From NCBI GenBank assembly GCA_965649765.1, contig OZ287756.1, forward strand, positions 36,270,001 to 36,334,000: a stretch of 64,000 nucleotides of DNA, read 5' to 3'. The notes beneath the pieces were generated by a model. That model ran no database searches, had not been told where the DNA came from, and saw nothing but the letters and a program-made list of their open reading frames with translations. A program made the translations under genes and the position numbers. Origin of the DNA: Bispira polyomma. Its lineage: Eukaryota. Position 1 is the stretch's first letter; each line of letters starts with the position of its first letter. Below are positions 13,915-61,900 of this stretch, in pieces.

Positions 13915-13951
13915 TGGTCACTTGGTCCTCTGTGTTAAGTGTGAGAGTGGA

Positions 13952-35889: not shown

Positions 35890-36900
35890 AATTCATACTT
35901 TGACAACTTTTAGTGTTATATTACATAATTTACAAGCCTATATTACATTTAATGTCTGTGTATGGACCCCCCTAAAACATCATAAGATCATTGCTCTTCT
36001 TAGTCTGAATTGCCTTCACAATATACTTAAGATAGATGTAGAACTACCACTAGACCCCATTGTTATTTACCCAGAAAATATCATATCAGACTGGGAAATT
36101 ATATTTTTGTAACACAATAGTGGAAGCTTTCTTTATCATTGGTATTAGGTTTCTGTAGACACTACCTGTCTCAATTGTAAGTTCTCTGTGGATGTATTTT
36201 CTTTCATTCTTTGTCATGAGTAGAAAATTTGTTTCAATGACATGAATGAAAATTAAAAATCAGGTTTTACTCAGAATTCTATTTTATTCTAATAAAAAAT
36301 ATATAAAATTTGTGCATATGGAAGGTTCTTATCTAAACAGCTTTAAGTACTGAATTTGTAGATGGACTAGATTGTAGATTACTTTTATAATGTTAGCCAA
36401 AATATGGAAGCCTCAGATTTGACCTTCAATCCTCGTTTTAACTATCTCTCTTGTTTACACTGTATCAATAAATATAATTTTTTTAATTTAAACATACATA
36501 TTAAATATTAAGACAGTCCAATCTGTCAATACAGGGGGCTTGTAAATATGATTTGTATGTACATGTAAATATCTATTAAATGATCGGTAGGAGACGTGTT
36601 GTTACTAAATCTGCATTAGAATGATGGGATACTTTGTCATTATCTTGTTCTTATAGTTTCTGTGATAAATACAAGAGATGTTCAGTGTTCACACCGGGGA
36701 CTATCTGTCTCCTCGCCAGTGTTTACTCTGGCTGGATGAGAACAAACTTGTAACTAACCCAAAACTCGGCACTAAACTAGCTTTTAACATGTCTTTTCTC
36801 ACAACACGACAGGCAGTTCACTGGTGGAGGAAATCAGAACAGGGGGAGTTGATCGAGGGTTTCTGCTCTGTAAACCACTGGCCTTTATGACCTGGTCACA
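35890..36900 (-). pseudogene. Decayed TLR relic R5, TIR-TM-LRRCT part; probably continues at ~38720-40100 and ~47550-48100
   Basis: Colinear with 54090-54800 plus 60244-60540; shares the FWVNNNGV*W segment (ccactagaccccattgttatttacccagaaa, ~36047-36077). 47570-48060 aligns with 60620-61170. Confidence 0.65.
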
Positions 36901-36903
36901 CCT

Positions 36904-37978
36904 TTTTATTATTATTATTATGAATTTTTAACGTGCTTTATTGATGCTAGGCATCTTCTAAAGCGCAACAGCAGAATCATTCGCCCAATTTTTAAGTCCA
37001 TGGGCATTGCAAAGTCATAAAGAAGGAAGTGGGAGCGTGCACGAGGGTTAGCTAAGGTGGGTAGGCAAGGTTAAACAGATAGGTTTTTCCTAAAACTGAT
37101 AAGTGTGTCAACTGATCTGAGGTCAACTGGGAGACTGTTCATAACTGTAGAGCTGCAGTGGAGAATGCGCTGAATCCCGCCTTCCTGATTGGTCTGATCG
37201 AAGAGACGGAGAGTCTGTTGCCTCTCTTGTGGTTACTGAAGGAGAGAAGGGAAGCAAGGTAGGGGGCTGTTGAGTGACTACAGCCTTAAAAGTAGTAACG
37301 TGAATCTTGAACAAAATGCGAGAATGAATGGGCAGCCAGTGTAATTTTTTTGAGGTAAGGAGTGACGTTTGTGCGACAACCCAGGCGAAAATGTCTCTAC
37401 ATAGGTAGTTTTGGATGGACTGGAGCTTTTTAATGTGTGACTTGTTTGCTCAAGAGAGAGCTGCAGTAGTCGAGGTGGCTACTCACAACGGCATTTGCCA
37501 CACTTATCGCTGTGTCCATGGACAAGTGGTTTCTGATTCTTTTGATGTCGCGTATATGATAATAGCAAGAGCGACAGATGTTGGCAATATGAGTGTCGAA
37601 CGAAAAAGCTGAATCAAAAGTGACACCCAGTTTTTGGGCATTTTCGGAAGGTAGTATGTCTTTTCCCAGCAGGGAGATGGGAAACAAAGATTTAAGAAGT
37701 TCACTGTTTTTCTTGTTTCCTATGAGGATGAATTCTGTTTTGTCTGGGTTAAATTTTAATTTGGAGTAGTTCATCCACGCCTGGACATCAGACAGACAGT
37801 CTGCAAGTAGGTCTATGTTTGTATTTGCATTGTGTGGATTGAGAGACAGATACACTTGAGTGTCATCTGCATACATGTGGTGTTTTATATTATGTTTATT
37901 GATGACAGTGCTGAGAGGATGTGTATAAAGGGTGAAAAGTAGAGGGCCAGGGACGGATCCCTGGGGTACTTCATACAC
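36904..37978 (-). mobile_element. 5'-truncated L2-clade LINE with intact 3' end
   Basis: [26 protein letters not shown] and LDYCSSLL motifs; 3' tail ending in (TAA)n at 36904-36925. Confidence 0.93.
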
Positions 37979-38720: not shown

Positions 38721-40344
38721 GAATGCACAATCTATTCTCTGTTAGATTTATCTAATTGATGTTTTATTTATTCATCAGTGTTATACATACTTATGCCAGT
38801 CAAAGTTGTAAAATGGCTTCCTAAAAGTAACAGTTCCCAACAGTTATACTCCAATACAAATAATTAGTTGTAAAAGTGATAGTAATAATACAAAGTAAAT
38901 TTTAAAGTAAAATTATGAATTTTCTACTTGTTCGAATTTAAATCAGCTAGAAACTTTTTATAATTGCGGGGGGGGGGGGGGGGGGGGAATTTTTTACTAC
39001 AGAATTATTTGTTAACTTTATGTTCAAAACATTCTTTGTCCAACCCCATTTTGAAATAACCTTTAATTAAATGTACCTTCAATCAGAAATTTATTTTGTA
39101 TTGAAAATAGACACAACTAGAAAAAAAATTCACTGTGCTCATTTATTTTTGTGTTTTATAAATAGCTTTTGTTTAACAATGGATTAAGAATTTATAAACA
39201 CACTGAGGCTTGACTTTTACATTAGTAGGTAGTTGTAAGTGACAACTTGTAACCAATAAACCAAATATTACCATACAAAACAGTATATCAAATTATTCTA
39301 AACTCAATGTATAGCAGTATCATTGCCACATTACATCCGCTGCTAAGAAGCAATTTGAATATGATTAGTTTGTTATAATGTGTCTTAACATTATGACAAT
39401 TATTTGCATTAATAAACATTGTGTTTCACAAATTTGTGGGTCAGAGTTTGGGATGGATATCAATTACAGTGCCCACTAATACGTCATTCAGTTCCCTAAT
39501 GTGGAAGTATTGATAAAATAATAAGAAGTCGTGATGGATTGAGAAGACAGTAAAAGATAGAGTTTTGAGGTTTATTTTTCTGTACATATTATTCTCATGT
39601 ACAGGGTGTATACAATATATTTAAAAAATTTTAAATACATGTAAAATTTTAAATTAGCCCATACGGCTGATACAAGCCCACTAGTGCGAACATAACTTGT
39701 TAGAACAAATTAGTGAGTATCCATTAGTCCATAAACACGCAATTACCAATGTATAGTTCTAGCCATTTACACTGTCAGTATGTTATTCTTACTACGTGAA
39801 TACACCATATACATTCACAATATACTATGATAATAAAACCGCGTATTAAAATACTTTTGGCATATGCATAGGTCTAGCCATTGACCATATCACCATATTA
39901 TTTTTGTTATGTGTTAAAATAGTTAACATTTATCATACAGCCCACATATGGGTCTACCCCAGTAGTGTACCATAGTACATCATGCTACTGATTTACCTAG
40001 GTTATCATAATGGTCCTTAGGATCATGCTATACTATACGACTTTCATCAGCTCTTGTGAATGTCATATTTGTCAAAGTAATCTTGAATATATATAAATCT
40101 TGTCATATTGAAAGCTAACGCCCCCAGCGTTGGCGGCCTCAGTTCTGGGGTACCAGGCTGTTCACTACTATGGGATGGATGGGCGAGTATATAAGCCATC
40201 CCCCTTTCATATTCTCCCGCCTTTTACCGTTTGTCAGCAGAGCACTAGGGAAATTCAAATACTGTTTGGGTGGCAAAGAGAGTGTTTTATATTTTATACT
40301 GTTATATGGTTTTAGTTTTTTTAATTCAATATACACTCAAGTCA

Positions 40345-41366
40345 TGCCAAGTCAAAAGACTGTGTTTTGTCCGAAATGTTTGCAAAAACATGAGAGACCG
40401 GTTGGAAGAAACTGTCCGGTTAATATGCCTGATATCTCGGGTGAGGGAGTGGAGGTTGACGCTGGCTCCCATGAGGACTCGCTGGTTCATCCGAACGAGG
40501 CTGTATCTAGTGCTATACTACAGCAGTTACAATCACTTAGCCAGGAAGTCGAGAGGATGGATCGGCGAGTCCAGCAGACAGAGGCAGCGTTAGCAGCCAA
40601 CCTCACCAGTAGTAAGGCAAGTACCGTTCCTCCTAGCATTGCTCCTAGTGTTTCTAAAGAGCTAGTCTCTGCTGACGAAGGTAAAAGCCCACCTACTGGC
40701 CCAGATACTGTCGTTCCGAATTTATTAGTCAGAATGCTCAGATTCAGTTGCAAGTTGAACAGAGGTTAAAGGAACTCCGGTCTCTTAATGAAAACCCCTC
40801 AGGTAAAATTAAGTCTCAGAGAACTGGGGGAAACGAGGTTATTGTAAACAAGGCGGTCGAATGGCCCCAGAATTATGTGCTGACTGGCAGTTCAAAGACT
40901 CGCCCTAGTTACGACGACCTAACCCTTGTACAATGGGTTTGTGGCTTCACCTGGATCGCTCATGAGGAGAAGTCGACTGAAATTAAGAATGCTATGCTAG
41001 ATGGAGGACGCCCAAGATTTTTCGTGCGAGGCGGCGAAGGCCTGCCACACGGTAGTCCTAACCAATATGGAAATGGACCAGCTCGGGTAGTTGGATGTCA
41101 AGAAGGTCGACCGGATTCGCAGGGCACACGCCCAACGTCATGTAGGTGTGTCAAGATCTATTCATGGGGTGAATGGCCGTGCTGTGGGCACTGGCAGTAG
41201 TAAAACTAGTCAGAAAAAGTCGACACCTTGCAGGTTTTTCCAAGAAGAGACTTGCAAGTTCTCTAGCTCACATAATACAGGGGGGCAAATGTATAGGCAT
41301 AGTTGTGAAACTTATGGGGATAGTCATAAGACCAGTATGTGTAGCAAAAAGGAGGCAAAAAACTGA
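40345..41366 (+). pseudogene. Ngaro gag-like ORF1 (frameshifted)
   Basis: N-terminal CPKCLQKHERPVGRNC, coiled coil, WPQNYV core, C-terminal CRFFQEETC...H...H.C zinc fingers; split over three ORFs. Confidence 0.88.
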
Positions 41367-43875
41367 GGGGCCACTGCTTGGATGCAATGGATAAAAAGGT
41401 AAAAAATTTTAAGGTTTTAAATGGAACTGTCTATGGCACAGGCTTCAAAGATTTTCATTTGTTGGAGAAAAATGTGTATCAGAAAATGTGTAAATATATG
41501 AAGGTAAAAAGGCCTAATGTTAGTTATAGTGATGCTTTAAAAAGTACTGCTAGTACCAGAAAACCAATGTTTGTATATAGTACTGGACATACAGAAAGTC
41601 TGAGCCATAAGGGTGGGGTTGACAGGTTTAGCTCTGGAAATGTGACAAAGGGCAGATTTTGCCAACCACAAAAGGTTGGCAGAGATGAACTCAAGAATAA
41701 TGTTGACACCTCTGCTGCCACATCTATTCAAAGGTTTGAAAAGTTAACACCTGTAATTGGCACCTCCATTGAAGTGGCTAAGAAAGTGACACCTATTGTG
41801 AAGCGACCCCCATGCACAAAGCAACAGGGCATGGAAACAAAAGGTGTTAGAAAATTGATTCAAAGGGAGGGCGAAAAGAGCCGCGTCAATGAAGCTAACT
41901 GTGGCCTTCAGCTTAACAATCGGTTTTCCGCGTTGGTACAGATACCTGTGGAGGACAATGCAGTCATTGTGAGGGTCGTTCGCTTTAGTGACACGCCGAG
42001 TAACAATGGGGGCTTAGCAAAGCACCAACAGACAAGTACTTGCACAGAATGTGTTAATGAAAATGTTGAAACCTCTGATAAGTATTTGTGTGCTTTAAAG
42101 CACAAGAAAAATAAAAGGGAGTTGCTGCAGAAGGCGGCCTCGAATCAAACACACAAAAAATGGCAGGACCAGAGTAGTCATGCTTATGGATTTATTCCTC
42201 TCTCGGCTTTGGGCAGTGAGATTGCCGACCATGGTGGGGGAGGGCACGAACTATCCATATTACAAATGCATAAGAAACTACGTCTTGATGGTAGGCATAA
42301 TTATACTGGCCTCCAGATTCTTGTCCATTCTCAATTAAAAGCTGAAACGTGGGGAAAGTATTTATAAACATACTGGGATTGGCAACTGCCTCTCCTTATA
42401 AAATACGGATTCCCTCTAGATGTGTGTCGAAAAATTCGTACTGAGTCGAATGAAACTAACCATAAGTCGGCAGAGGAATTTCCTCAACATGTAGACGCCT
42501 ATATGAAGCAAGAATGTGGCTTTGGGGCAATGCTTGGTCCTTTCGACACTCCACCAATTCAGAATTTGCATTGTTCCCCCTTAATTACCAGACATAAACC
42601 CAACTCGATTAACAGACGTGTGATCGTGGACTTGAGTTGGCCTCAAGGGGCTTCAGTAAATGCAGGTGCTTCGTCGACTTTGTATCTGGGTGTCGATTTT
42701 TTACTGTCTTACCCTTCCATTGATCATTTTTTTGGGTAAGGGTTGTCAGATATTTAAAAAGGACGTGAGTAGGGCGTTTCGCCACGTCCCCATTGACCCT
42801 GGCGACATTGACCTCTTAGGGCTGAAGTGGAAATCTTACTATGTCGATAAATCGCTGCCGTTTGGTTATTTGAATGGCAGCACTATTTTTCAACGAATTT
42901 CGGATGCAGTGTGTTTCATAATGCACTCAGAAAATCATAATGTCCACAACTGTATCGACGATTTTTTATGTGTATCACTTCCCAGCAAAATTCAGGAAAC
43001 GTTCATAAGACTGCAAGAATTACTTGCTGAACTGGGTCTTACAGTTAGTCAGAAAAAATTGGTTCCACCCAGCACTGAGGTAGTCTGCTTAGGCATAATA
43101 ATTGACACAGTCAAATGCACAACTTCTATCCCATCTGAAAAAATGACAGAAATTCAGAGCAAGTGCAGGGATTGGGCTTCAAAAAATTATTATACCAAGA
43201 GAGAACTACAGTCCTTACTGGGGCTTTTGCTATATATCTCTAAATGTGTTAAATATGCTCGGGTTTTCTTGAATAGAATGTTGGAACTGCTACGAGATAA
43301 TCACAGTAAAAACAAATTGTAATAAGTGATGCATTCAGACGTGACTTAAATTGGTTTAGAACTTTTGCAGAGCAGTTCAATGGTGTTTCCTTTTTCTTAC
43401 ATAAACCCATATCAGGCGAGATACAATTGGATGCCTGCCTCACAGGCATGGGGGGGGGGGGATTTATGGAAATCAAGTGTACCAAATTAAAGTTCCTACA
43501 AGTATGACAGAGTATAATATAGCTTCTCTCGAAATGTTGAACATTTTGGTAGCAATGAAGTTATGGGTCCAAAAATGGAAGGGTCAGAGAATTTTATTAA
43601 AATGTGACAATGAGGCAGTAGTCAGTGTGTTACAGACAGGCCGTACTAGAGACCCCATATTGGCCACTTATACCAGAAACATATACATGTTAGCCAGTAA
43701 GTTTGACATTGAAATTGTTGTAGTCCATATTCTAGGTAGAGAAAATAAAGTGGCTGACTAACTTTCCAGATGGGCTGAGACAGAAAATAACCACCTATTA
43801 TTAAATCAACTGGCTGGACCAATTCAATGGCTTCCTGCCCCTGACAATTTACTTCATGTGAATACTCTTATATAG
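41364..43875 (+). pseudogene. Ngaro pol: long N-terminal region, RT and RNase H (disrupted)
   Basis: RRVIVDLSWP, DVSRAFRHVPI, LPFG, NCIDDF (decayed YxDD), DACLTGMG, IASLEM, CDNEAVV, HILGRENKVAD. Confidence 0.92.
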
Positions 43876-43893: not shown

Positions 43894-44877
43894 GCACTCA
43901 CCCTGTGGGTCTGGCTCTGATGAGACGGGCTTGTGATAGGCTGAACTCAGCTCTTACTCCTGCCACTAATAAAGCATATGACAGAATGTTCCGACAGTTC
44001 CTAGCTTTTGGAGCCTTTATGTCGTGGCCTCCCCTCAAGGTAACTGTGTTGCAAATTTTAGCATATTTAGAGTTTTTAAATTTCAATGGGGTTTCGGCCT
44101 CTCAGGTAGTAAATCACATCTTGGCTGTGAAGGCAAAATGTGTTATGTTTCATATAGATGTTCAAGTATTTTCTGATAAGAGAATTTCTTATTTCACTAA
44201 AGCCTTGGCCATGCATAGACCTTTACAAGCAAAATTGAAGTCAATTTTTTATGTGCACTTGCTTAGGGCTCTCATTAGTAAATGTGATAGTACTTACATG
44301 GGCCAAATTTTCAAGGCTGTTTATTTGACAAGTTTTTTTACATTTTTGCGTTTATCCAATCTGTGTCCTCATTCAATGGGGTCATACTCTCCTCTTAAGC
44401 AATCAGCTAGAGCTGATGTTTTATTTAAGCCAGGGTATGCAGTCATCATGGTTAAATGGTCTAAGACGCTGCAGAGAAATGATGCAGTTCGGTTGCTAAC
44501 CATCCCTAGTATACAAAATTCAACTCTTTGTCCTGTTCAGGCTTGAAAGCTGTGTTAGCCATCTCACCTAAAGGGAAAAATCTCCCATTATTTCAATTTA
44601 AACTCCAAGGCTCATGGGTTCCACTAACGGACACACGTGTGCGAAGGCACCTCAAAAATGTACTATCCTTACTTGGTACTCAATACTCTGGCTTGACCTT
44701 TCACGCCTTCCGACGTTCAGGTGCCACCTTTGCGTTTAACAATAATGTCAAGATTTAGGATATTCAGAAACAGGGCACCTGGACGTCGGATTGCGTGTGG
44801 CGTTACATCTCAGACTCTGCTGATGCTGGTACTCAAGTTGCAGATTCCTTTAAAGATGTCCTACAAAACACCTACTA
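43894..44877 (+). pseudogene. Ngaro tyrosine recombinase (frameshifted)
   Basis: FLRLSNL (catalytic R), WSKT, HAFRRSGA (HxxR), GTWTSDCVWRY (catalytic Y). Confidence 0.92.
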
Positions 44878-47800
44878 GTTTGGGGCTTTTTGGTCTAACT
44901 TAAAATTTTAGGCTTAAGATCTGTCAAAATAACACTAAATATTATACCTTTTTTGGGCATAAGGTCCCCCCCTTCATTATATTAGTACATATTGTACTCA
45001 AGTATCTAAAGTTCGACTTAAAACCCTAACTCAAACTTCAGACTAGCACAAATTTAAAGTTTAATCGCTTAAGTTTGCCCTTAAATTAAAATTTCTACAA
45101 AACTTAAACTCTTAACCTTAAACTCAAATCTTCTAAGTTTGGACTCAAAGTCAACTTTGGCAAACTTATACTCTTAAACTCATTGTACCTAAGGTCACCT
45201 TAACGTAAGCTTTGTATAAGCTCAAGGCCTTAAACTCACTTGAGTTAAGGGGACCTTATGCCCTCAACAGTATTACGTATTCTACAAAGAAACTGTATAT
45301 AAAACATACGTTAGTAGTAGAAATCATGTATACATAATAAAAGTATTTAACCGCAATCTTTTCTTACTATGTGTTGTTGGTTTAATATCTATCATTTGCC
45401 CACACACCGAGGAACTGTGAAAGCTAACGCCCCCAGCGTTGGCGGCCTCAATTCTGGGGTACCAGGCTGTTCACTACTATGGGATGGATGGACGAGTATA
45501 TAAGCCATCTCCCTTTCAAATTCTCCCGCCTTTTACCGTTTGTCAGCAGAGCACTAGGAAAATTCAAATACCCACCCTCCACTGTCCCTGGTGATAAATG
45601 TATATGATATACTTGCTAACTTATTAATGAAAAGCTACCTAGCCCGGGAGCTCTGACTCACAAATTTCTGCTTAAAAAAATTGTGTGTTATTTCAGATGT
45701 TAAGCAAGCTTCTCATGTAGATGTGCATGTTGCGTTTAACCTCTGTGGTATTCTCTGGAGCTGCATCGCGCTAGGACCTGGCCAGTTTGTCTGTGCTTCT
45801 AGTTGAGTGACTTCTATCTGTGTTTCATGAACAGTGATGGCAAACGATCGTGCCTGGGCCAGGTCCTCTCTGTATGGTGGTGGTGCATCTCTCTAGCTTT
45901 AGTATTATTGGAGCCTCAGTATTGTCTTCAGGATGCTTCAATGTATTACATGGAGCCTCAGTATTTCATGGAGCCTCAGTATCAAGATGGAGCCCCAGTA
46001 TTTCTGGAACAAGATTCCTGCAGATGTTGAGATTACATATTAAAATGACTGTCTATTTAAATAATTTATGTCACTGTAACTTCCCAACTGAGTTTTGTTT
46101 GTTTTTGGTTTTCTTGTTTTCACAAGCTAAGGGATCGTATTGGTCGATCACGTAAGGTGCTTGCAGACTGAGCTAGTAGGGAAGTTTCAAAATACAATTT
46201 TATTTTATATGCAGGACGGAATCTGGGTTTCAAGATGGCCGACTGGCAATGGTATCAGAATAGCGACTGGCCGGTGGGCTTACGTGATTTAAAGGCTGTA
46301 TTATATATGATTCTTTTAAGCATGATCCATTATATATTTAGTAAACTGTGATGTTCAGGCTTGCCTGTTTTATAAATCTATTTTAGTGGGAACCTGGTTT
46401 TCCTGTAACTTTTATACAATTACTAACGTTTTTAAAATTTTAGCAGTCTTTGTACTTGCAGTTCTTACATGTACCATGGTTAATTGATAAAGTGTTATAT
46501 ACATATACATACAACGACATACAGGTGGTCTAACTTAAAATTTTAGGCTTAAGATATGTCAAAATAACACTAAATATTATACCTTTTTTGGGCATAAGGT
46601 CCCCCCTTCATTATATTAGTACATATTGTACTCAAGTATCTAAAGTTCGACTTAAAACCCTAAGTCAAACTTTAGACTAACATAAATTTAAAGTTTAATC
46701 GCTTAAGTTTGCCCTTAAATTAAAATTTCTACCAAACTTAAACTCTTAACCTTAAACTCAAATCCTCTAAGTTTGGACTCAAAGTCAACTTTAGCAAACT
46801 TATACTCTTAAACTCATTGTACCTAAGGTCGCCTTAACGTAAGCTTTGTATAAGCTCAAGACCTTAAACTCACTTGAGTTAAGGGGACCTTATGCCCTCA
46901 ACAGTATTGCGTATTCTACAAAGAAACTGTATATAAAAAATACGTTAGTAGTAGAAATCATGTATACATAATAAAAGTATTTAACCGCAATCTTTTCTTA
47001 CTATGTGTTGTTGGTTTAATATCTATCATTTGCCCACACACCGAGGAACTGTGTGGTCGTAAATCTCCCATCTCCAACGAAACCACCACTATAGCTGGAA
47101 CCCGCTTCCTATGGCACCAAATCGCCTAGCGAAGAGAAGTTCCCGACTATAGAGCTGTACTCCTGCCCTGGTATCCCACACCAGGGGGTAGTTTACAAGA
47201 AGGGAACACAATCTTCACACAGACACGGGTTTGAGCTTATTAGTGGTGGCACGCGAGCTATATAGGTAATCATTTCCATAATGGAGGAGCAAAGGGGAAG
47301 GTGGAGGGAAACATAAAACTTTTTCCAGTGTTTACCAGAGTTTACTGGTTTCACATACTGGAATCAAAATGGTGCTTGAATCTGGGTAAGCAGAAGCCAA
47401 ATCAGCAGGGGGGTTTATTAGTGATTGGTTAGCCCAGTCACGGTTGAATGAAATAGTGAGGAACAAGAAAGGTTTTTTAAAATGGTAGATTTAAGTGGAT
47501 GGTGAACTGACACAGCAGTCCCCTAAAGTGGTCGTGCTAGTCATACTTCCTCTTTTTATGGGGCGAATGTCCACAAAAATCAAATTGGCCAATTAGATGA
47601 GTTGTCATTGACTTTTCTGACAGTCCAGGGATTGGTTTCTACTGGACAACCATTACATCTCACGGCTCATTAGTTTGTGCCGTCAGTTTAGGTTTGCTTT
47701 TCATGTCACAAAGGACTCCTTACGCATTGACTGGTCATATTAGGTGAATTAATGATGGGTATTCTTAATACCATTGACAGTACATAATAGTTATCACCCA

Positions 47801-48149
47801 TACTTTAAAGTTTCTGTTTAATAAGTGGATATTTTTATTTACTGAAGCAACAATAGTTTTGGTAAAGCTACACAGAAAAGCCTTTTTATGCTGATTTATT
47901 CTGTGAAAAACAAATGTGGTAGTAGACAGAGAAGAAAACTACTTTATCAATCAAATGAACTTGTATTGTGTATATGCAGCTGCATAAATAATTTACTAAT
48001 ACGCCTTTTTGGTGCTATTGAAATATGACAAGAAATCGTCAATTAGGAAGTGTCTGTAGCCACCAAAGCCACCAAAATTCCACTTTCTTGCTTTTATTAC
48101 ACAATATACTGAGGCGTCTCACTTTGTTATGCCCACCAATAAACCTTTT

Positions 48150-49150
48150 TACTCTTTTACTCTTAAAATACTAATTAGATTAGTACTGGCCTTTGTATAA
48201 GGGGGACTTACTTCCTTATTTTCAGAATGATTTGCCTTTGATTTCCTGATAATTTAGAATGGTTGTTGGTTTACTTTTATTGTAGGTCACAGCTCATTAG
48301 TTTGTATCTGCAGGCCTGGGTTTTCTATTTACTTTCACTGAATGAGTTTCTTTCTCCTCCAAACTCATAAACAGGAAACAAAACTAATTGTTGTACCTAA
48401 TTGCTGTGTTAGTATCAAAGATAACGTTCAATGGTAAGACTTTGTACTAGACACTATTTTAGTTATCAGGACTGTGATATATATTAGTTACATATTTTTA
48501 AAGTTAAATGCTCACTTTTTTGTAAGCATGTGTGGAAATTAAGGCTATACAATGTGTAGATATATTGTGTTTTGATGGCAACATATATAAATCTTTTTTT
48601 TAAAGACAGATTTATTTAATGCCAAACAGAGTGTCAACAAGTAAACAGCTTTCTATGCCACATAAGTGATGTTTTGGTTGGCTGTGGTCGACCTCTCAGC
48701 ACTGATCAATACAAAAGCCTTCTCTTTGAGTAAAATAAAAGTTACACAATTAAAGTGAGACTAATACTACTTCTGGCTATGGTGAACCACCGATAATACA
48801 GAGTCACCTTTATGAGTAAAATGAAAATTAAACAATTCAAGTGCACCTAATACCACCAGGCAGCAACGTCTCAGTTTAATGAGCCAGTTGGGTTCAGATG
48901 AGATGTGTCAAGAGCTTGCTGATGTAGTTCACTGTAGTGTTACAACAGAAAAAAAACCTATTGCAGTTTACAGACACCACACAGTGGTAAAACTTTTATC
49001 TGGTTCTGTTTCTATTAATGATATTGACAAAGATGCAACATTATTTTAACGACTTAACTTTAACAGTTATATATTCTTAGTCACCATTCAAAGACATAGG
49101 TGATTCCTGCAGTTAATTGCTGTTTTTTTAATGTCAAATGTTATACTTGA
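48150..49150 (-). pseudogene. Decayed LRR ectodomain relic R6 (paralog of R3)
   Basis: 48215-48330 resembles 32100-32230, and 48600-48720 resembles 32540-32680. Confidence 0.45.
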
Positions 49151-49199
49151 GATTGTGTTAAAACCTAGTAGGTGAAAATATTTACCAATCAAGAAAGAT

Positions 49200-52100
49200 A
49201 ACCACTGACTGTTTCATAATTTACAAGCTCATGTCTAAGATCAAAGCTTTTTTTGTCTAAATTGCCCTTACCAGAGATCTATTTAAGATAGGTGTAGAAC
49301 CAATACTAGGTCCCATTGTTATTTACCCAGAAATAAACTGTGGCAAATCAATGTCTTCAATGTTATTATTCGACTCCGAATGTCTGTCTTGTAAAAAATT
49401 TAGTCTTTGATGACACATGTTACAGAGCACTGATCTCATGTCACACTGGGGAATTATGTTTTTCTTACACAACACAGGATGCATCTTGCATTGCTGGTAC
49501 TAACTTTTTGTAGATTGAAAGGAACTCTCCGATGTTATAGTACGTTAGCATTAGTTGTATGTTCATTGACCAGTTTGTCAGGAGTTTTAAATTACTAAAT
49601 AAGCACATCAGAAAGCATGTTTCTTTAGCTTGTCGATATATGTTGACATAAAGTCATATACGTATATATAGTCTAGTGTATAAGATATCTAGAACTTATA
49701 AGTTTGGTTTGTGTGGCAATAAAGAAGCTAGTATGTGACAAACGAGAGACCTATAGCCAGTCTCACTAAATGCCCAACAAATACAGGGATATAATCTGTC
49801 CTTGTTTCACAAGTATTTCATCCTTCCTATAGCTGTATTTGATGACACAGTAAACAATGTGGACAACTAAGTAAAAGAGATTTGGAGTGAAACTTGGGAT
49901 AGAAACTCTTGTGTTCACACTTGGGACTATCTGTCATGTTTAACAGTGTTTACTTTGGCAGGAGTGGAGTAGATCTGTCACCCAACTCAAAGTTCCACTA
50001 TTTCCAAGCCATTGTACAATTTTTAACTGAAGATACATTTTCATATAGCCATCAATTTCATTGTTATCATTTTGTTGATTTATTCTTTAAATGCAATCAG
50101 AAAAGTAATTCATATAAATTATCATAAACTATCTCAAAATGTGGTTGACAATATTTTATCTCATGAAGCATCAAATTTATTTGCAGTTTGAACCAAATAA
50201 CAAAAATTGGGTCATACCAGAAAGCAATTTAACAATCCCCTGCTTATAGTATAACTTCTCAGTTACCCACATTTACTGTGCACATGTAATTAAAACATCA
50301 AACAACACCCAGTTGTAACAAGCATGATAAGAATACTAAGATTATTTATTTACTAGGTAGTTGTAGACAATTATTATGATAATCTAGTTTGTAAGTATTT
50401 CATGTCAGCAATACTAAGTATACAGATATCATATCTAATGCTCTAGTATATCATTTATTTCCATATTGATCAGGTGAATGTCCACAGAAACCTTTTACTT
50501 TCAAACTGGCCTGCTATGAGCAATCCAGTTTGTGTTCTATTAGACAGCTATCAGCCTTCACAGCTCATCAGTTTGTGCCGTCAGCTTTGTGTATTGGTCT
50601 TTGCTGTCATCTTATGAACACCAACACATTAACCTCTCACATAAAGGTAATCATTTAAGTGATGTACTTTTAAAGCCATTGATAGTACGTCCGTTTTAAT
50701 TAAAATTATATCACCCATACTATAAGATTAAATAACCTTACTTTTATTTACTGATTGAAAACATTTCTATAACAAAAGCACAGGATTAGAGTCACACATA
50801 AATGTGAAATTATAAGCAACAGTAATTTTTCTTGCACCAAAAACCACTTTTAGGTCGAGATTTTTGCAGTAAAACCTAGTTTGGGTGGACCAGGGGGAAT
50901 ACCTCATGTATGATATGAACTGCTATTGGGGTTTAGTATCACAAACAAATTGACAAATGCACATTATTTTGTCCCATTAAAACTAGGCAAGTAGTCTCAG
51001 TGGTCTGATTGTGTGTCATTAAGGGATTAATGTTAGAATATACATCCTGATTTAAAAATGGATGACTCCAGCCTAATTTAGCTGGCAGTTAATACAATTC
51101 TCTCTGTATTTCTGCTGTAAGAAACATATAAGTCAGATGGATACACCTCTGAAAGGTTAAAAAATACCTTGTCTAAGGGGCTATAAACTCCTTTAAGTCT
51201 TTTGACTGCTGGGTTTATGGACACGTGAAGTTGTTAACTTACTGTACTCTCGATGGTAATGTATTCTTTGTTCTTTAATAAATTAACTACAGACGTTAAA
51301 CCACACCAGCTTTATTATATTGTAAGTTGTTAAAATACAAATATCTTTTTTAACCAAATAGGTAATGCAAGTGCCAAAAGCATGTTAGAATATAATTTAA
51401 TTCCATGGCAGTTATATAAATCGTTCATAAATTGTGCATTTAAAATGACTCATACTGTACCCCTTCAGGGGAATTGTGTGGCAGTAAAATGTAAAAGGTA
51501 GAGGAACTACAGTGGGTACATAAGTAACATTTTATAGTAAGGACACTTAAAAGAGTGATAATTAATCTATCACCGAGTACAACATAGTAACCTATCTAAG
51601 TTTATTACCTGTTTCAGGTATCCCAACATGTGACTTACATCTGTTTTAATGTGAAACATTATCTGCTTTTAGAAGTTGTTTTACATTCCACCAAACCAAA
51701 TTTGTCCAATGTCTTTTGCACAACCAGAAAGTATATAGATGTTTTTTCAACTACTGATGACGTGTATTGTGTTCTGGGGTGTCATATAACTTGTCATTGT
51801 TAATTGTCGCCACCACAGATCTAATTTAGAGAAAACCGCAACCACAAATAAACCTTTATGTTGGTATGTATCCACAAACAGAGTGAGACAAATCACTGAC
51901 TTTACTAAAAAGTTCTGGTATTAAATCTCCAGCCACAAGATGTTTTTTAATCTTCAAAATTATTCTTTTGACAAAACGCAGAAAAGAGCAGTACTCCAGG
52001 GTCAGGCAAGAAAATTGCCATGTTTTTTGTCATTGTGGATTCTCATCCAATATCACTGATATTAGTTACTAAAGATTAAAGGGTACTTATTCTTCTGTTT

Positions 52101-54090: not shown

Positions 54091-54800
54091 TACCTTTGAC
54101 AATTCCTCCAAAACATCATAAGATCATAGTTCTTGTTAGTCCAAATTGCCTTCACCAAATGTCTACTTAAGATAGAAGAAGAACTACCACTAGACCCCAT
54201 TGTTATTTACCCAGAAATGAACTAGATATGACAAATCAATGTTCCAAATGTGATTTCTGGTATTAATACTCTACTCCAAATGTCTCTCTTTTAAAAAAGG
54301 CTAATTTAGTCTTTAATGAGACATATTACAGAGACGTGATCTCACATCAGACTGGGAAATTATAATTTTGTAACACAATAGGGAAAGCTTTCTTCATCAT
54401 TGGTATTAGGTTTCAGTGGACACAACCTGTCTTAATTAAAGTTCTCTGTGGATGTATTTTCTTTTATTCTTTGTCATCAGTAGGAAACTTAAGTCTTTCA
54501 ATGACATGTAAAAATTATAACTCAGGATTTTACTCACAATTATACTTAATTCAAATGAAAGAAATATAAAATTTGTGCATTTGAAAAGGTCTTTTTTTAC
54601 TGCTTTAAGCACTGAATTTGTATGTGAAATAGGATGTTCATTTTTCAATGTTAGCCAAGATATGGCAGCCTCAGATTTGACCTTCAATCCTCGTTTGAAC
54701 TATGTCTTGTTTACACTCTCTCAACAAATATAATTCTTTGAATTTAAACATACATATTTAGACAGTCCATTCTGCAAATACTGGTAGCTTGTAAATATGG
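54090..54800 (-). pseudogene. Decayed TLR relic R8, TIR/TM part
   Basis: CVH*NLIPMMKKAFPIVLQNYNFPV*CEITSL (~54330-54425) aligns with WVHDALMKTLEDRYGFKLCIHYRDFPLGATISSA of the intact TLR; FWVNNNGV*W ~ VMNNNVYLQW. Confidence 0.7.
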
Positions 54801-57800
54801 TTACAATAAAAATATATTCTTTAATAGCTGAGAATATTTAAGTTGAAAGGAGTCACTACTTGGTAAAATTGTATAATTTTGACCCATTTTCGTCAAAATT
54901 GAGCCTTTTTCGTCAGAAAAGCGTTTTTTGTCATTTAGGGTGACCTGTTTGTATGTTGTAGGCAGCTCCCCGGCGCTGGCGTTTCAGTTCACAGGAAGCA
55001 GTCAATTGACCTCGTTGCGGCTTACTATAAAAGACGGAACATTTTAAATTCTCCCGCCTTTCTTATTTTCATGTACTAGGAACAACTTCAAAACAATAGG
55101 TTTGGCGGTTTAAATTTGAATTTGTTGTTGATGCACTTGGATATTTTAGTTGTTTTAGTATTTTAATTTCAGATTGTATTTCTATGTTCACAATGCCAAG
55201 TATTAAAGATTTTAGTTGTTCCAAGTGGGGGGGAAAACATGAAAGGCCAGTCGGTAGAAAATGTGTATATTTTGTTGCACCTGAGGAATCCGTGGCTGTC
55301 GCCGGCTCCAGTGAAGCTTCTGTCTCCTCTCCAGGTCAGGACGATCTTATTTCTGGACAAATCTTGACACAGTTGCAATCCATGGCTGAAAAGATGGAGA
55401 GGATGGACCAATGAGTACAGCTCACAGAGGCGGCGATAGTGGGAGACCTCACCAAAAATCAGGTGGGTAGTAGCTCTCTTTCTGTTAATTCTGTAGTCGA
55501 ACCGAATGTCGAAGCTAGTGTTATCCCTACTGTTGAATTTCTAAAGAAAAACTCGGCCATTCAGACCCAGGTAGAACAGAGATTAGTAGAACTAAAAGCT
55601 TTGAATGAGAACCCTAATCAAGGTAAGCTTAAATCCCAACGAGGTGGGGGTACTGACGTTCTGGTTAAAAAATTAGTTGAATGGCCCCAAAATTATGTGC
55701 TTACTGGTAGTCTAAAAACTCGTCCAAGTTATGACGACTTAACTCTGAACCAGTGGGTCTGTGGATTCACTAGCATAGTGCAAGATGAGAAATCCCCGGA
55801 AATTCGCGAAATAATGTTGGAATACATGGCCAACTTGATGGAAGACTCCCAGGATTTTTCTTGGGAGTCGGCCAAAGCTTGCTATACTGTTATCCTCTCC
55901 ACGATGGAGATGGACAAACTTAAGTGGACAGAAGTCGATAAGATAGACCGTCTGAGAAGGGCGCACGCCCAAAGGCACAGTGCTAGTAGTAACAGTCTGG
56001 TAAGTAGCAAAAACGGTACTAAATCAGCTATCAATGGTAAGCAGAATTCGGCAAATTGCAAATTTTTCCAAGAAGGTATGTGTAAGCATCAGAGTAATCA
56101 TAAGACTGGTAATACATACTTCAGACGTGTGTGAAGTGTGTGGAGGTAATCACAAAAAATTGGCCTGTCATAAGAAGGGTTAAAAAAACTGAGGGGCCAC
56201 TGCAGTAATGCAGTGGGCGAAAAAGATATAAAGCGAGTTTTTAGTCGCACTGTATATAGTAAGGATTTCAATTCATTTCACTTGTTTGACAAGTCGGTGA
56301 TTAAAAAAATGTGTACATATAATAGAGGTATAACAAGTCAGTGTAGTTACAGTGAAGTCGTGGTTAAACCGCGTAGTAGCAGTAAGTATGTGGAAAATTG
56401 TGTGTTACAAAGTGTACAAAGAATACCAGTACTAATCCTAACCTTTTAAAAGAAAGTTTGGGGGCAAAGTTCTCTCTAGACATGTGAACAAAGCAACAAT
56501 GGGGGCGACCAGAGCTAGGCAAATACACAAGGTGAGAGTAAAAGAAATACAACCTATTGTCAAAACTCGGGTTCCTCTATTTGTGAACAAAAGTAAAAAG
56601 CTACTGGATTCCTACAGAACAAATAATCAGTAGCAGGCTGACACGGCTAACAGATTTAGTGTGCTAGGTCAGCCTGACACCTCCATTGTTGAGGGCCACA
56701 GCGACAACAATGGAAGTAAGTGTTTACTGGAGCCTATTGTTAGCAATACACTGACCAGTGGGGGAGAGGTTAGTACCAAAAAAAGGGGCAGTATTTCTCG
56801 AAAGGGGAATTCCCCCTCACAGGTCAGTATAAAGGAACAAAAGAAAAAGTGTTCAACAAGGCTTTACTAGTGACAAGTGTGTATTCGATTTGAAATAAAA
56901 GCAGAATAAGCGTGAATTGTTGGAAAAGGCAAAATTAAATGAAGCCCACATCAAATGGCGTGAACAAAACAAGGTCCACTATGGTTTTATCCTTTTGACT
57001 ACATTGGGTATAAAAATATGGGACAATAGTTCAGAAAATCTGGGTATTGATATTTTAAAAATGCACAACTTGTTGCGAAAAGATGGTAGGCAAAATTTTA
57101 AAGGTCTTCAATTATCAATAAAGTCTCAGCTTCATCCTGATAGGTGGAAGCGATATTTGAGCGAATATTGGGATTGGCAGTTACCTTTACTACTAGCCAA
57201 TCAGCGTGGCCCAATCACAAATTTGCTTTGGAATTTCCTGAACACGTCGATTTCTATTTGAAGGATGAATGTGACTATGGTGCAATGCTCGGGCCATATA
57301 TGGACCCTCCAATCAAAAATCTGCATTTCTCCTCAATGATGACACGTACAAAAACAACCTCGAGTAATAGGCGGGTCATCGTTGATCTGAGTTGGCCGAA
57401 GGGCCAATCAGTTAACACTGGTGCTTCACCCACCACATACTTGGGTACAGATTTCATATTGTCTTATCCTTCTATAGATCACTTAACAAATGAGGTATTA
57501 AAACTGGGGAGAGGTTGTAAAATATTCAAAATTGACATTAGCAGGGCATTTCGACACGTACCCATTGACCCTGGGGACATTGATTTGTTAGGCCTGAAGT
57601 GGGGTTCTTACTTTATAGATAAGTCACTCCCGTTCGGTTATCAGAACGGGAGTACTATGTTTCAGAGAATTTCAGATGCAGTAAGATACATAATGCACTC
57701 TGAGGATCATAATGTCCACAATTATTTGGATGATTTTTTATGCATCTCGCTCCCGAGTCAAATCGACAAAATTTATAAATGCTTGCAGGTACTGCTTTCG

Positions 57801-58628
57801 GAACTAGGACTTACAGTCAGCAAAAAGAAATTGGTCCCTCCTAATACCGTGGTTATATGTCTGGGTATTAGTATTGATACGGTAAAATTTACTACTTCGA
57901 TTCCTATTGAAAAATTGCAAGAAATTAAAAATATATGTGTCAGATGGAGAAGTAAAAAATCTTGTACCAAAAAAGAGAGTATATCTGAATCGAATGTTGG
58001 CATTATTAAGAGACAACCATAACAAAAGTAGATTTCCTCTGACTGAAGAGTTTACTAGAGACCTTAGGTGGTTTATAACGTTTATAAATCAGTTTAATGG
58101 AGTCTCCTTCTTAAATCACAAGCCGGTTAATGCAAAAATTGAGTTAGATGCTTGCTTAACAGGCATGGGAGGCATATATAAAAATCAAGTATATAAACTG
58201 TCAGTCCCTACTAGTATGTCCCATCATAATATTGCAGAACTGGAGATGCTGAATATATTGGTAGCTTTAAACTTGTGGGCTGAGGCCTGGCGTGGATTCT
58301 GAGTATTGTTCAAGTGCGACAACCAAGCTGTGGTCAGTGTCTTAGAAACGGGGCGAACAAAAGACCCAATACTCGCTACCTATACTCGCAACATATATAT
58401 GTGGGCTAGTCGTTTCAATATTGACATCAAAGTTGTACATATACTAGGCGTGGATAACAATATAGCCGATTTATTGTCTAGGTGGGAGAAAACCAAAAAT
58501 AATGAGCAAATGCTAGCTACTTTGACAGGTCCTGTAGTTTGGTTAGATACTGACCACACTTTGTTACAAGTTGATAATAATATATAGTTTAACTACCTTG
58601 ACTTGTATGTATTTCAGCAACAAATCCA

Positions 58629-59549
58629 ATGGATAAGATGGCCTGCCAGAGATTGCATTCAGCTTTCGCTGCTTCAACAGCCAGAGCCTATGACAGCATG
58701 TATAGACTCTTTCTGGCTTTCGGGGTCTTTATGAATTGGATCCCCAGCCAGGTGAACGTTTTCAACCTTCTTGTATATCCAGAATTCTTAAATTTTAATG
58801 CTGTAAAACCCTCTCAAATTGCAAATCACTTGTCGGCCATCAAAGCTAAGTGCATCCTTTTCCATTTGAATGTTGAAGTTTTCTCTGATCCACGAATTTC
58901 ATATTTTACCAGAGCCTTGTTAATTAATAGACCTTTGCAAGTAAAATTAAAATGTATTTTTGACATACCCTTGCTTAGTGCTGTAATACAAAAGTGTAAC
59001 TATATGTATATGGGTCAAGTATTCAAGGCTGTTTACCTTACCAGTTTCTTTAGCTTTTTGCGACTCTCAAATCTATGTCCTCATTCAGTAAAGGATTTTT
59101 CACCTCTCAAGCATCTCGCCAGGGGCGATGTTATGTTCAAGCCTGGTTATGTAGTTCTCCTAGTAAAATGGTCTAAAACCATGCAAACAAATGATGCTGT
59201 ACGACTCCTTACTTTACCAGCTCTGTCAAATTCTATTTTATGTCCAGTCACAGCCTTAAAGAACTTGTTGGCCCTTACCCCTGCTGGTGCAAATCTTCCT
59301 TTGTTCCAGTTTAAGCTTTCGGCTTCCTGGATCCCTCTTACTGACACCCGGGTCAGGCGCCATCTCAAAAGTGTCTTACAAATGCTGGGATTACAAAATT
59401 CAAATCTCTCATTCCATGCTTTTCGACGTTCAGGTGCCACCTTTGCTTTTAATGATAATGTCCAAATTCAAGATATTCAGAGGCATGGCACCTGGACGTC
59501 GGATTGTGTGTGGCGATACGTCACATACTCAGCCAATGCTGGTTCCTAG
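58629..59549 (+). CDS. Tyrosine recombinase ORF of the second Ngaro element (open, catalytic residues present)
   Basis: 306 aa with FLRLSNL, WSKT, HAFRRSG and HGTWTSDCVWRY. The TAG at 59547 may be slightly premature. Confidence 0.88.
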   Translation: MDKMACQRLHSAFAASTARAYDSMYRLFLAFGVFMNWIPSQVNVFNLLVYPEFLNFNAVKPSQIANHLSAIKAKCILFHLNVEVFSDPRISYFTRALLINRPLQVKLKCIFDIPLLSAVIQKCNYMYMGQVFKAVYLTSFFSFLRLSNLCPHSVKDFSPLKHLARGDVMFKPGYVVLLVKWSKTMQTNDAVRLLTLPALSNSILCPVTALKNLLALTPAGANLPLFQFKLSASWIPLTDTRVRRHLKSVLQMLGLQNSNLSFHAFRRSGATFAFNDNVQIQDIQRHGTWTSDCVWRYVTYSANAGS

Positions 59550-59969
59550 GTAGCCAACGCTTTCTCTGCAGCCCTGGGTGCTTCTTCGTGATCTGGGTTT
59601 GGTGGTCTGCCACATTTTATGTGACAGTACATGTTCATATTAATGTATTCAAATAAAAACTTACAGTAACCATATAACTGTACTGGGCATAAGGTCACCG
59701 TACATAATGTACTCTTTTATCTCAAATTTGATTCAATCATCTCAAACTGAACTTATATTTAAGTCTACCTTAACATGAGGTTGACTTACTGCAACCTTAA
59801 TCTCAACATGTTTCTTTTTTGGCTTAACCTGACCTTAAATTCCAGTTAAGTCATTGGTAGACTTAACTTAAGCTGGACACGAATTTTGATCCAAGCTACA
59901 CTTAACTTAATTGTATTTTAAAAGTTTATTTATGGTCGCCTTATTCTCAAATTAAGGCTACCTTAGTGA

Positions 59970-60110: not shown

Positions 60111-60243
60111 AACTTCATAACTGTGTACATATGATAAGTAGTAGTGTAACATATTAGTGCCTAATAAAATCTTAAACCGCAATCTTTTACTTGGTTATTA
60201 AACTTACATATTATTGATTAGGACGGCTACACAGGGGAACTGT

Positions 60244-61900
60244 GCATAAAATACCCATTAGGTGATAGGTAAGAGATATGTTGTTACCAAATCTCCACCA
60301 GAATGGTAGGATACTCGGTCATATTCTCCTTCTTATAGTTTTTGTGATGACACTGCAAAACTTAGGACTTTTAAGTACAAGATTTTCAGTATTTACACCG
60401 GGGGACTATCTGTCTTTATTACCAGTTTTTACTCTCGCAGGATGGAAATAAACTTGTTACTTACCCAAAACTCTGAACCAAACAAGTTTTCAATACATCT
60501 TGTGTCATATTACGATAGGCAGTTCACTGCTGGAGTCAGAGTTTGGGCATGGCATATCAACTACCATGCCTTATAATATGTCATCGTCTTCCTATTTTTA
60601 TTAATGTCCACAAAATAATTAATGTCCACAAAATAAATAGCTATCAAACTGACCAATAAGATAATTTGTCATCGACTTTCTGACAGTCCAGGGATTGGTT
60701 TCTACTGGACAACTATCAAACTTCGCGCCTCATTAGTTTGTGCCTTCAGCTTTGGTTTTGCTTTGCAAGTCATAAAGGAACCCCTACACAACGACCGCTC
60801 ATATTAGGGGAATTGATTGATGGATACTCTTAATACCATTGATAGTATATAATGGTTATCAACAATAGAATAGGTTTACTGTTTCATAAGTGGATCTTTT
60901 TTTTCACTGAAATAAATGATTTTTTTAACATTTTACCAAAACCACAAGATTATGGTCACAAACAACTTGTTTTTGGTAAAGTTGCACAGAGAACTACTCA
61001 CATGCCAAAGTATTCTGTGCAAAACTAATGTGTTAGTAGACCCAGAATAAGGCTGCTACATGAATCAAATGAACCAATATCGTGTGTCTTCAGCAGCATA
61101 AATAATTTACTAATACACATTTCGGTGCCCATCGAAATAAGACAAAGACATAATGAATTAGGAAGTGCCTGGATTAACAACACTTAGAATACATATCCAG
61201 ATTATTAGTGGCAGGTGATGGGGCTCTTTGTGGTGTAGGGATGACACCCATGCCTCCCATCTCTGCAGATGTGTTTTCGAATCTCGACCCTGGAATGTTT
61301 TTTTTTGGAAAAAGGTCAGTGCTGAAGCTTAAGGCTGGTGCATCATAATGCAGAAATCTTGACAAACTACACTCTACCCTCTACCAAGAAACTGTATGTA
61401 GTAATATACTATAATGGCCTTCAAAGCAACACCATTAATGTCTAAGTAACTGTCTAACCAGAGGAACGGGATAGACTCTCAGTTAAAACATTGACCCCCA
61501 GCTCAATTTACCTGACAGCTAATAAAATCGACTCTATTGGTGTTCCTCTGCCATGGTATTCATCTTAAAGAGTGAAACAACTTACTCAAGAGGCTATAAA
61601 CTAATTTAAAGCTATTGGGTGCAGGGATTTATTGAAACATGGAGCTGTTATTCTCCAATTCCATTTCCCTGGATTTGAGCACACTTTCCGTTTTTGTTAT
61701 ATATTCCATGTAGATGTAATATCACACCAGTTTTTTTTATTTTGACTTTATTAAATGAGAATAGTTTTGTCGACCCAAGTGAAATTATATACAGTATACA
61801 CTGAACATTTTTTTATGAATCTTTGAGTACAAACAAAATAAACCTTAATCAACTTTTAGTCATATTTGTCACACAGAAGGATTCTACACTATAGCCTCCC
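60244..61900 (-). pseudogene. R8 continued: LRRCT/LRR relic beyond the Ngaro insertion
   Basis: 60244-60540 ~ 36560-36835; 60620-61170 ~ 47570-48060; 61190-61730 ~ 34860-35200. Confidence 0.65.

What the first reader, a model, noticed from the sequence alone, without database searches (positions are those of the whole stretch)
41357..41390. Programmed -1 ribosomal frameshift signal joining gag and pol, conserved in both elements
Seen: gag ends A AAA AAC TGA (41357-41366; 56183-56192). A 7 nt spacer follows the heptamer, then a hairpin ccactgc...gca(a/g)tgg (41371-41390; perfect 7 bp stem at 56197-56216). The -1 frame (KKLRGHC...) is exactly the frame of the downstream pol ORFs (41378; 56213). 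The aaaaaactgaggggccactgc string is identical although the surrounding sequence has diverged. Established: A_AAA_AAC plus a stem 5-9 nt downstream is a canonical -1 PRF design. Together with the intron, one promoter could yield Gag, Gag-Pol and Gag-YR.
Basis: partly seen in the sequence, partly recalled or inferred. Interest (0 to 1): 0.7.

Follow-up and report, generated by a model that had tools for sequence, protein, structure and literature searches.

The report
Frameshift joins Ngaro gag to pol
A large family of jumping genes in this animal genome keeps a slippery sequence and a hairpin exactly where its first gene ends, which likely makes ribosomes slip back one base to produce its reverse transcriptase, as in retroviruses; a distant branch of the same family appears to use a forward slip like one proposed for certain plant viruses.

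Summary
Confirmed, but untested in ribosomes. A AAA AAC, a 7-nt spacer and a hairpin sit at the gag stop of two Ngaro-type tyrosine-recombinase retrotransposons.

The cassette is family-wide: 1,098 genomic matches, all with a paired stem base, C-G or G-C. In 118 copies found by Gag protein, not by motif, 109 keep the heptamer and 101 all seven pairs. Synonymous positions are frozen (30-32 of 32 lineages, background 0.30-0.78). Unbroken copies have an 810-865-codon pol in the -1 frame with no shared start codon. A sister clade keeps heptamer and spacing with another stem. No pseudoknot signal.

Corrections: both window copies are decayed. Copy 2 has an in-frame stop overlapping the heptamer; copy 1 has a mismatched stem.

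Wider result: one distant clade has G GAA AAC plus a long stem (-1); another ends gag at GTT-stop-Y with pol in +1, like the closterovirus GUU-stop-C site.

-1 gag-pol frameshifting is textbook; I found no report of these signals in DIRS-order elements, but two key papers were not held. No RNA run was listed. Earlier scan notes cover the Gag-YR splice in this genome; my look-ups showed none on this gag-pol signal here.

The parts
40109..40262 (+). Copy 1, split direct repeat A1
   Evidence: 97% to 45418-45571
40344..41366 (+). Copy 1 gag, broken by two frame breaks; ends in Cys/His knuckles and K-N-stop
   Evidence: translation, tblastn with an unbroken relative
40800..40808 (+). Copy 1 predicted splice donor CAG|GTAAAA, phase 1 (cut after 40802)
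   Evidence: sequence; AG|GTAA at the same place in 14 of 14 clade-A loci printed; not seen in RNA
41357..41363 (+). Copy 1 slippery heptamer A AAA AAC, in gag register
41364..41370 (+). Copy 1 gag stop (TGA) plus rest of the 7-nt spacer
41371..41390 (+). Copy 1 stimulatory hairpin, 7 bp with one A.C mismatch, 6-nt loop
   Evidence: -7.0 kcal/mol, z -0.76; family form is fully paired
41357..43875 (+). Copy 1 pol (variable N-terminal region, RT, RNase H), -1 to gag, broken in several places; end approximate
   Evidence: RVT_1 E 2e-8; tblastn pieces
43894..44875 (+). Copy 1 tyrosine-recombinase exon, behind a pyrimidine tract and AG ending at 43893; broken; end approximate
44891..45571 (+). Copy 1 repeats B1 and A2
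46526..47000 (+). Copy 1 repeat B2 (right end not mapped beyond 47000)
   Evidence: 97% to 44891-45366
55193..56192 (+). Copy 2 gag, broken by a stop at 55412-55414, a frame break near 56130 and a stop at 56181-56183
55619..55628 (+). Copy 2 predicted splice donor CAAG|GTAAGC, phase 1 (cut after 55622)
   Evidence: sequence; not seen in RNA
56183..56189 (+). Copy 2 slippery heptamer A AAA AAC
56190..56196 (+). Copy 2 TGA plus rest of the 7-nt spacer
56197..56216 (+). Copy 2 hairpin, 8 bp perfect stem, 4-nt loop
   Evidence: -16.8 kcal/mol, z -5.6
56183..58587 (+). Copy 2 pol, -1 to gag at its start, broken; end approximate
   Evidence: RVT_1 E 8e-12
58618..59564 (+). Copy 2 tyrosine-recombinase exon behind TGTATTTCAG acceptor (ends 58617)

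Best explanation
The motif is the conserved gag-pol junction of Ngaro-type tyrosine-recombinase retrotransposons and is likely a programmed -1 ribosomal frameshift signal. Shown: gag ends on or one codon after A AAA AAC; pol overlaps it by a few codons in the -1 frame without a shared start codon; a 7-10 bp hairpin begins 7 nt after the heptamer; heptamer and stem are conserved at nucleotide level. Inferred: ribosomes with tRNA-Lys and tRNA-Asn on AAA AAC meet the hairpin, a minority slip to AAA AAA and read on (Gag ...K-N, then L-R-G-H-C in the window's subfamilies) to give a Gag-RT-RNase H protein of about 1,200 residues, while most stop and release Gag. By analogy with synthetic hairpins (6 bp 3.5%, 10 bp 13%; PMC3203594, passages) I would predict roughly 3-12% frameshifting. 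The two copies in this window are decayed relics of the signal.
For: (1) Motif-independent sample: loci from Gag-protein searches of the own genome, junction placed from the gag stop. Clade A 58 of 62 AAAAAAC and 53 of 62 with 7/7 pairs; clade B (Gag C-terminal half 41-45% identical to A) 51 of 56 and 48 of 56 (9 further loci were dropped because the gag frame broke before the stop; L123 and L169 are one place). (2) Phase: the longest downstream frame is -1 in 100 of 118; 41 have 300 or more open codons in -1, none in +1; full pol frames of 813-865 codons in L066, L075, L096, L155, L161, L169, L259. (3) Nucleotide-level constraint: in 32 lineages (85% clusters; mean 57% nt identity) third positions of Lys AAA, Asn AAC, His CAC, Cys TGC, Ala GCA, Val GTG are the same in 30-32 of 32, against modal frequencies 0.30-0.78 in 36 other conserved gag codons. 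(4) Compensation: stem-base pair G-C 19, C-G 12, G-U 1, unpaired 1 in 33 rows; genome-wide 1,098 matches, 0 C..C and 0 G..G. (5) The spacer stays 7 nt while its sequence varies and the stop moves (0, 1, 6-7 or 10 codons after the heptamer). (6) Clade C keeps A AAA AAC and spacing with an unrelated stem, 88% of cells paired. (7) No shared AUG: first Met at residue 91-288 in several clade-B pols, behind a conserved W..DW...[ST]YA motif. (8) Other assemblies: 19 of 38 Gag homologues end in KN; 6 of 83 long Pol homologues show HC..AV near the N-terminus, four as KKL..HC.NAV. (9) Hairpin median -16 kcal/mol against -4 for 960 background 37-mers. Design matches the consensus in PMC3542737 and PMC5009743 (passages).
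Against: No ribosome, protein or RNA data. The inner six pairs never covary (3 invariant, 3 depart only by unpaired cells), and the C-G/G-C swap may be one or two historical events counted many times. Clade-C covariation is not above the shuffle control (179 of 500 for pairing, 96 of 500 for the score). The stem is short for a stand-alone stimulator; copy 1's is at the level where activity vanished in PMC3203594 (about -7.7 kcal/mol). Clade A has a Met at residue 38-43 in most lineages. Forty of the clade-A loci were picked by me for long open gag frames.
Confidence: 0.88

Rival explanations
1. Pol is made by splicing: the gag donor is joined to the AG inside the 3' arm (GCAG|TG), with CTGAG/CTAAG in the spacer as branch point; the palindrome is incidental or regulates the acceptor.
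For: That AG is phase 1 in the pol frame, like the gag donor, and lies about 21 nt after a branch-like motif in clade A (sequence). The element very likely splices to reach YR.
Against: No pyrimidine tract before it (mean pyrimidine 0.47, T 0.17 in 29 lineages, against 0.57-0.79 at the likely YR acceptors); the AG is buried in the stem; the branch-like motif is not kept in clade B; in clade C the corresponding GCAG is phase 2; it does not explain the frozen heptamer. The loop-stop test was uninformative (0 of 48 stops, 0.97 expected).
Confidence: 0.05
2. Pol is translated separately by reinitiation or leaky scanning from an internal AUG (Met 38-43 in clade A) or a near-cognate codon set up by the hairpin.
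For: Met at residue 38-43 in most clade-A lineages; hairpins can help non-AUG starts (PMC3542737, passage).
Against: Clades B, C and F have no shared Met (first Met 91-288 in several); conserved residues lie upstream of those Mets; an AUG lies in the -1 overlap in only 2 of 32 lineages; the heptamer's synonymous sites would be free.
Confidence: 0.04
3. The palindrome is conserved for another reason (packaging or dimerisation signal, DNA protein-binding site, or the coded H-C-x-x-A-V peptide) and the A-run is just Lys-Asn coding in an A-rich genome.
For: The inner six pairs are invariant rather than covarying.
Against: Fixed 7-nt distance to a frozen heptamer in three different stem families; pol would still need a way into the -1 frame.
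Confidence: 0.03

Closest known systems
-1 tandem-slippage frameshifting at retroviral gag-pro/gag-pol and astrovirus ORF1a/1b sites with A AAA AAC (MMTV, BLV, HTLV, EIAV, astroviruses; PMC3835772 passages and table; PMC3542737, PMC5009743 passages)
   Same: Same heptamer, spacer within 5-9 nt (7), 3' stem, polymerase in the -1 frame
   Different: Here the stimulator is a 7-10 bp hairpin without pseudoknot signal, shorter than the 10-12 bp natural hairpins listed in PMC3203594; the gag stop lies 0-1 codon after the site; the host element has no protease or DDE integrase
Animal LTR retrotransposons with pol in -1 (28 of 51 surveyed, 2 of 51 in +1; PMC5009743, passage)
   Same: Gag-Pol ratio likely set by a -1 heptamer in an animal retroelement
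   Different: DIRS-order element with split direct repeats and a tyrosine recombinase; the words DIRS, Ngaro and tyrosine recombinase do not occur in the 300,000 characters of that review that are held
Ngaro retrotransposons (PMC8547959, PMC9210276, PMC4157794, PMC3783388, passages)
   Same: A1-gag-RT/RH-YR-B1-A2-B2, no methyltransferase
   Different: Passages read describe overlapping ORFs but no slip site or stimulator; the frameshift proposal I could see (Poulter and Butler 2015, only as quoted in PMC13003380) concerns the pol-YR overlap, which here looks spliced
Closterovirus GUU-stop-C +1 site (PMC3542737, passage)
   Same: Clade E of this family: GTT-stop-pyrimidine at the ORF1 stop, polymerase in +1, no shared AUG, no conserved 3' structure
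   Different: Animal retrotransposon; the base after the stop is mostly T; extra conserved 5' context CAG-(Arg/Lys codon); applies to the related clade, not to the window copies

Membership tests
-1 programmed ribosomal frameshift signal | X XXY YYZ heptamer in zero-frame register | tested here: met
   A AAA AAC in gag register in both copies and 109 of 118 relatives
-1 programmed ribosomal frameshift signal | 3' structure 5-9 nt downstream | tested here: met
   7 nt in clades A and B, 7-9 nt in C, 7 nt in F; weak in window copy 1
-1 programmed ribosomal frameshift signal | Long overlapping -1 ORF without its own start | tested here: met
   813-865 codons in unbroken relatives; broken in the window copies
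-1 programmed ribosomal frameshift signal | Structure supported by covariation | tested here: inconclusive
   One clean compensatory pair and whole-stem replacement; inner pairs invariant; clade C not above shuffle
-1 programmed ribosomal frameshift signal | Measured frameshifting or trans-frame protein | not testable with these tools
   needs a reporter assay or proteomics
H-type pseudoknot stimulator | Loop pairs with downstream sequence | tested here: not met
   loop-downstream helix 3.29 against 3.23 shuffled, p 0.40, 28 lineages, 35 nt downstream only
Ngaro retrotransposon | Split direct repeats A1...B1 A2 B2 | tested here: met
   copy 1; relatives L101, L075, L169, L303; not found for copy 2
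Ngaro retrotransposon | gag, RT/RNase H, tyrosine recombinase in that order | tested here: met
   RVT_1, RVT_3 and a weak Phage_integrase hit (E 0.007, below cut-off) in relatives; HxxR and Y residues visible
Ngaro retrotransposon | No methyltransferase domain after RNase H | tested here: met
   pol ends about 30 residues after the RNase H-like hit; no such Pfam hit in 2 of 2 full pols
Ngaro retrotransposon | RT groups with reference Ngaro sequences | not tested
   no named reference sequences on hand; the tree holds only this genome's copies
Closterovirus-like +1 site (clade E, outside the window) | GUU-stop-pyrimidine at ORF1 end, ORF2 in +1, no shared AUG | tested here: met
   GTT in 44 of 51 copies and 21 of 22 lineages; T or C after the stop in 21 of 22; +1 frames of 820-882 codons in 5 copies

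The most novel reading that the evidence does not exclude
Ngaro retrotransposons run a retrovirus-like three-product programme from one RNA (Gag, frameshifted Gag-Pol, spliced Gag-YR) and have switched recoding mechanism within one genome: -1 at A AAA AAC with at least three different hairpins, -1 at G GAA AAC with a long stem, and a structure-free +1 slip at GUU-stop in clade E. Clade E would be an animal counterpart of the unexplained closterovirus GUU-stop-C site, with dozens of natural variants to test the mechanism in animal ribosomes.
Probability: 0.6. Interest if true: 0.68.

Novelty: new member of a known kind. Interest (0 to 1): 0.5.

Why it matters
How DIRS-order retrotransposons translate their overlapping ORFs is essentially untested. 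This gives a precise 34-nt cassette, present in over a thousand copies, that predicts Pol exists as a Gag fusion in an element without a protease, and explains why gene callers start these Pol proteins at scattered Mets. The mechanism itself is ordinary. The more surprising part is the related clade with a GUU-stop +1 junction: +1 gag-pol arrangements were rare in animal retroelements (2 of 51 in the survey cited by PMC5009743), and that motif's mechanism was called 'something of a mystery' for closteroviruses (PMC3542737, 2012).

Tried and rejected
No RNA holder listed; two unlabelled contig runs laid on a young copy looked like DNA (element depth far above flank) and gave no informative joints. 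Metagenome scan with the Gag alignment: 261 pattern matches, none confirmed, so no junction DNA from other species; cross-species support rests on protein ends only. Pseudoknot: no signal. Loop-stop test: no power. One search used a structure one column out of register and is void; one search replaces it. Gag open frames of about 190 codons in many copies come from indels in a G run, not from an intron. In-frame gag-pol fusions in single copies (L076, a deletion of stop and 5' arm; L193, L235, L241, one extra or lost base near the A run) were treated as decay or assembly error, not as a lineage trait. Literature: searches found no description of a gag-pol slip site in Ngaro or DIRS elements; Goodwin and Poulter 2004 and Poulter and Butler 2015 are not held and may well propose it (I recall, unverified, that these authors noted -1 overlaps). 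No supplements were read.

Full report
Observation. The 21-nt string is at 41357-41377 and 56183-56203. In both, A AAA AAC is in gag register, TGA follows, and a stem starts 7 nt after the heptamer. The -1 frame reads KKLRGHC. None of 44 other AAAAAAC sites in the window has a comparable stem. Copy 2's hairpin is 8 bp (-16.8 kcal/mol, z -5.6); copy 1's carries a mismatch and folds no better than shuffles (-7.0, z -0.76). Both copies are decayed: gag and pol are interrupted, and in copy 2 a gag-frame TAA (56181-56183) overlaps the heptamer, so ribosomes would not reach it in frame. The case therefore rests on relatives.

What the elements are. Copy 1 has split direct repeats A1 (40109-40262), B1, A2 (45418-45571), B2. 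Unbroken relatives show gag (350-362 codons), pol (845-873 codons stop to stop) and a 330-380-codon recombinase ORF between such repeats. Pol carries RT and an RNase H-like domain and ends about 30 residues later, with no methyltransferase hit; the recombinase has a weak Phage_integrase hit. This fits the definition of Ngaro in PMC8547959, PMC9210276 and PMC4157794 (passages read). Grouping with reference Ngaro RTs was not tested.

Family evidence free of motif ascertainment. The exact string has 185 genomic copies, but that set is chosen by the motif. I therefore collected loci by Gag-protein search and placed the junction from the gag stop. Of 127 clade A/B loci, 9 were dropped because the gag frame broke before the stop; 40 clade-A loci were picked for long open gag frames. 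Among the 118 kept, the heptamer is intact in 58 of 62 (A) and 51 of 56 (B; the other five end in T, at a CpG), and all seven pairs form at fixed spacing in 53 of 62 and 48 of 56. The longest downstream frame is -1 in 100 of 118; 41 have 300 or more open codons in -1 and none in +1. The -1 frame is open only 2-31 codons upstream.

Constraint is on nucleotides. In 32 lineages (mean 57% identity) the synonymous positions of the heptamer and of the four stem codons are the same in 30-32 of 32, whereas 36 other conserved gag codons show modal third bases of 0.30-0.78. The base pair at the foot of the stem is C-G in clade A and G-C in clade B. Genome-wide, the general cassette has 1,098 matches and the two non-pairing forms have none; this may reflect very few historical events. 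The inner six pairs do not covary. Spacer sequence and stop position vary, the 7-nt distance does not. Clade C keeps heptamer and spacing with another, longer stem (88% of cells paired, covariation not above shuffle). Proteins from other assemblies agree: 19 of 38 Gag homologues end in KN, and several Pol homologues begin with KKL..HC.NAV or KKR.

Mechanism. Shown: anatomy, phase, conservation. Inferred: tandem slippage from A AAA AAC to AAA AAA at a hairpin pause, giving Gag plus a minority Gag-Pol fusion. The design matches the consensus in PMC3542737 and PMC5009743 (passages). Hairpins alone can stimulate, with 3.5% at 6 bp, 13% at 10 bp and loss near -7.7 kcal/mol in the SRV-1 context (PMC3203594, passages), so modest efficiency is predicted. 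No pseudoknot signal was found.

Rivals. Splicing into the stem's AG is in phase for clades A and B but lacks a pyrimidine tract, is out of phase in clade C and leaves the heptamer unexplained. An internal start fits clade A's Met 38-43 but not clade B, where the first Met may be as far as residue 288, behind conserved residues.

The intron claim. A phase-1 donor lies in mid-gag of both copies (cuts after 40802 and 55622) and of 14 of 14 clade-A loci printed. A phase-1 AG behind a pyrimidine-rich tract opens the recombinase ORF in both window copies and in 16 of the 17 relatives with a recombinase hit (19 tried). This supports a spliced Gag-YR, as earlier notes of this scan say, and differs from the frameshift proposed for the pol-YR overlap by Poulter and Butler 2015 (seen only as quoted in PMC13003380). 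No RNA was available.

Other clades. An RT tree of 30 rows separates clades A, B, C, D, E and F with full or near-full support; E and F are 35-38% identical to A, and long branches meet there, so their order is unsure. Clade D has A AAA AAC TGA with a weaker C-rich/G-rich stem (2 of 3 copies intact). Clade F has G GAA AAC (13 of 15; A GAA AAC in 2; picked by motif among Gag hits), a 7-nt spacer and a long stem, with pol in -1; G_GA starts are known exceptions (PMC5009743, passage). Clade E has no heptamer: gag ends GTT-stop in 44 of 51 copies (54 examined) and 21 of 22 lineages, all three stops are used, a pyrimidine follows in 21 of 22, pol lies in +1 (820-882 codons in five copies), the first Met varies from residue 31 to 250 behind a conserved F-W...H-L-G.C.C.W-C motif in most, and no stable 3' structure is conserved. 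This matches the closterovirus GUU-stop-C description (PMC3542737, passage). It is a prediction from sequence.

Novelty. -1 gag-pol frameshifting is well known, so the finding is a new member of a known kind. Searches found no account of these signals in DIRS-order elements, but the two defining papers were not held. Look-ups of earlier scan notes showed the Gag-YR splice many times in this genome and one fungal Ngaro where frameshifting was judged likelier, but no note on this cassette. Interest 0.5, raised by the +1 clade.

Noticed in passing
L240:1318-1333, L257:1325-1340, L313, L315, L330 (clade E, own genome): Gag ends CAG-(CGN/AGR/AAG)-GTT-stop-Y with pol in +1; the G three codons before the stop is the same in 22 of 22 lineages, which is unexplained.
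   Followed up: partly
L202, L303, L252 (clade F): Young family (467-codon gag, identical repeats) with a non-canonical G GAA AAC site and a long stem that encloses the gag stop.
   Followed up: partly
L250, L265, L246/L307: Further junction types seen only in broken copies (CAA AAC TGA CAG CC; A AAA AAC GGA); frame could not be fixed.
   Followed up: no
L076 (G000:C6:51003335-51010847): A deletion removing the stop and 5' arm fuses gag and pol in one 1,221-codon frame; single copy.
   Followed up: partly
Pol residues about 20-75 in clades A, B, C, F and in other assemblies: A short conserved segment (R..YNS ... [ST]YA[DEQ]V) right behind the shift site, followed by about 200 highly variable residues before RT; function unknown.
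   Followed up: no
window 2912-5509 (+): Single-exon 865-codon LRR-TIR (Toll-like receptor type) gene; similar A-rich motifs at 1264, 5492 and 8825 hint at more TIR-gene pieces nearby.
   Followed up: no
window 36000-37000, 47600-52000, 54100-54450, 60200-63500: Long 71-96% direct repeats spaced 11-24 kb apart around both elements, suggesting an old tandem duplication into which they inserted.
   Followed up: no
own genome: Gag and Pol searches return 8,000-20,000 first-look candidates: a very large Ngaro expansion with several young, near-identical families.
   Followed up: partly
gag G run after KLKSQR, clade A: Frequent one-base indels in a G homopolymer break gag in many copies; mutation hot spot or assembly error.
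   Followed up: partly
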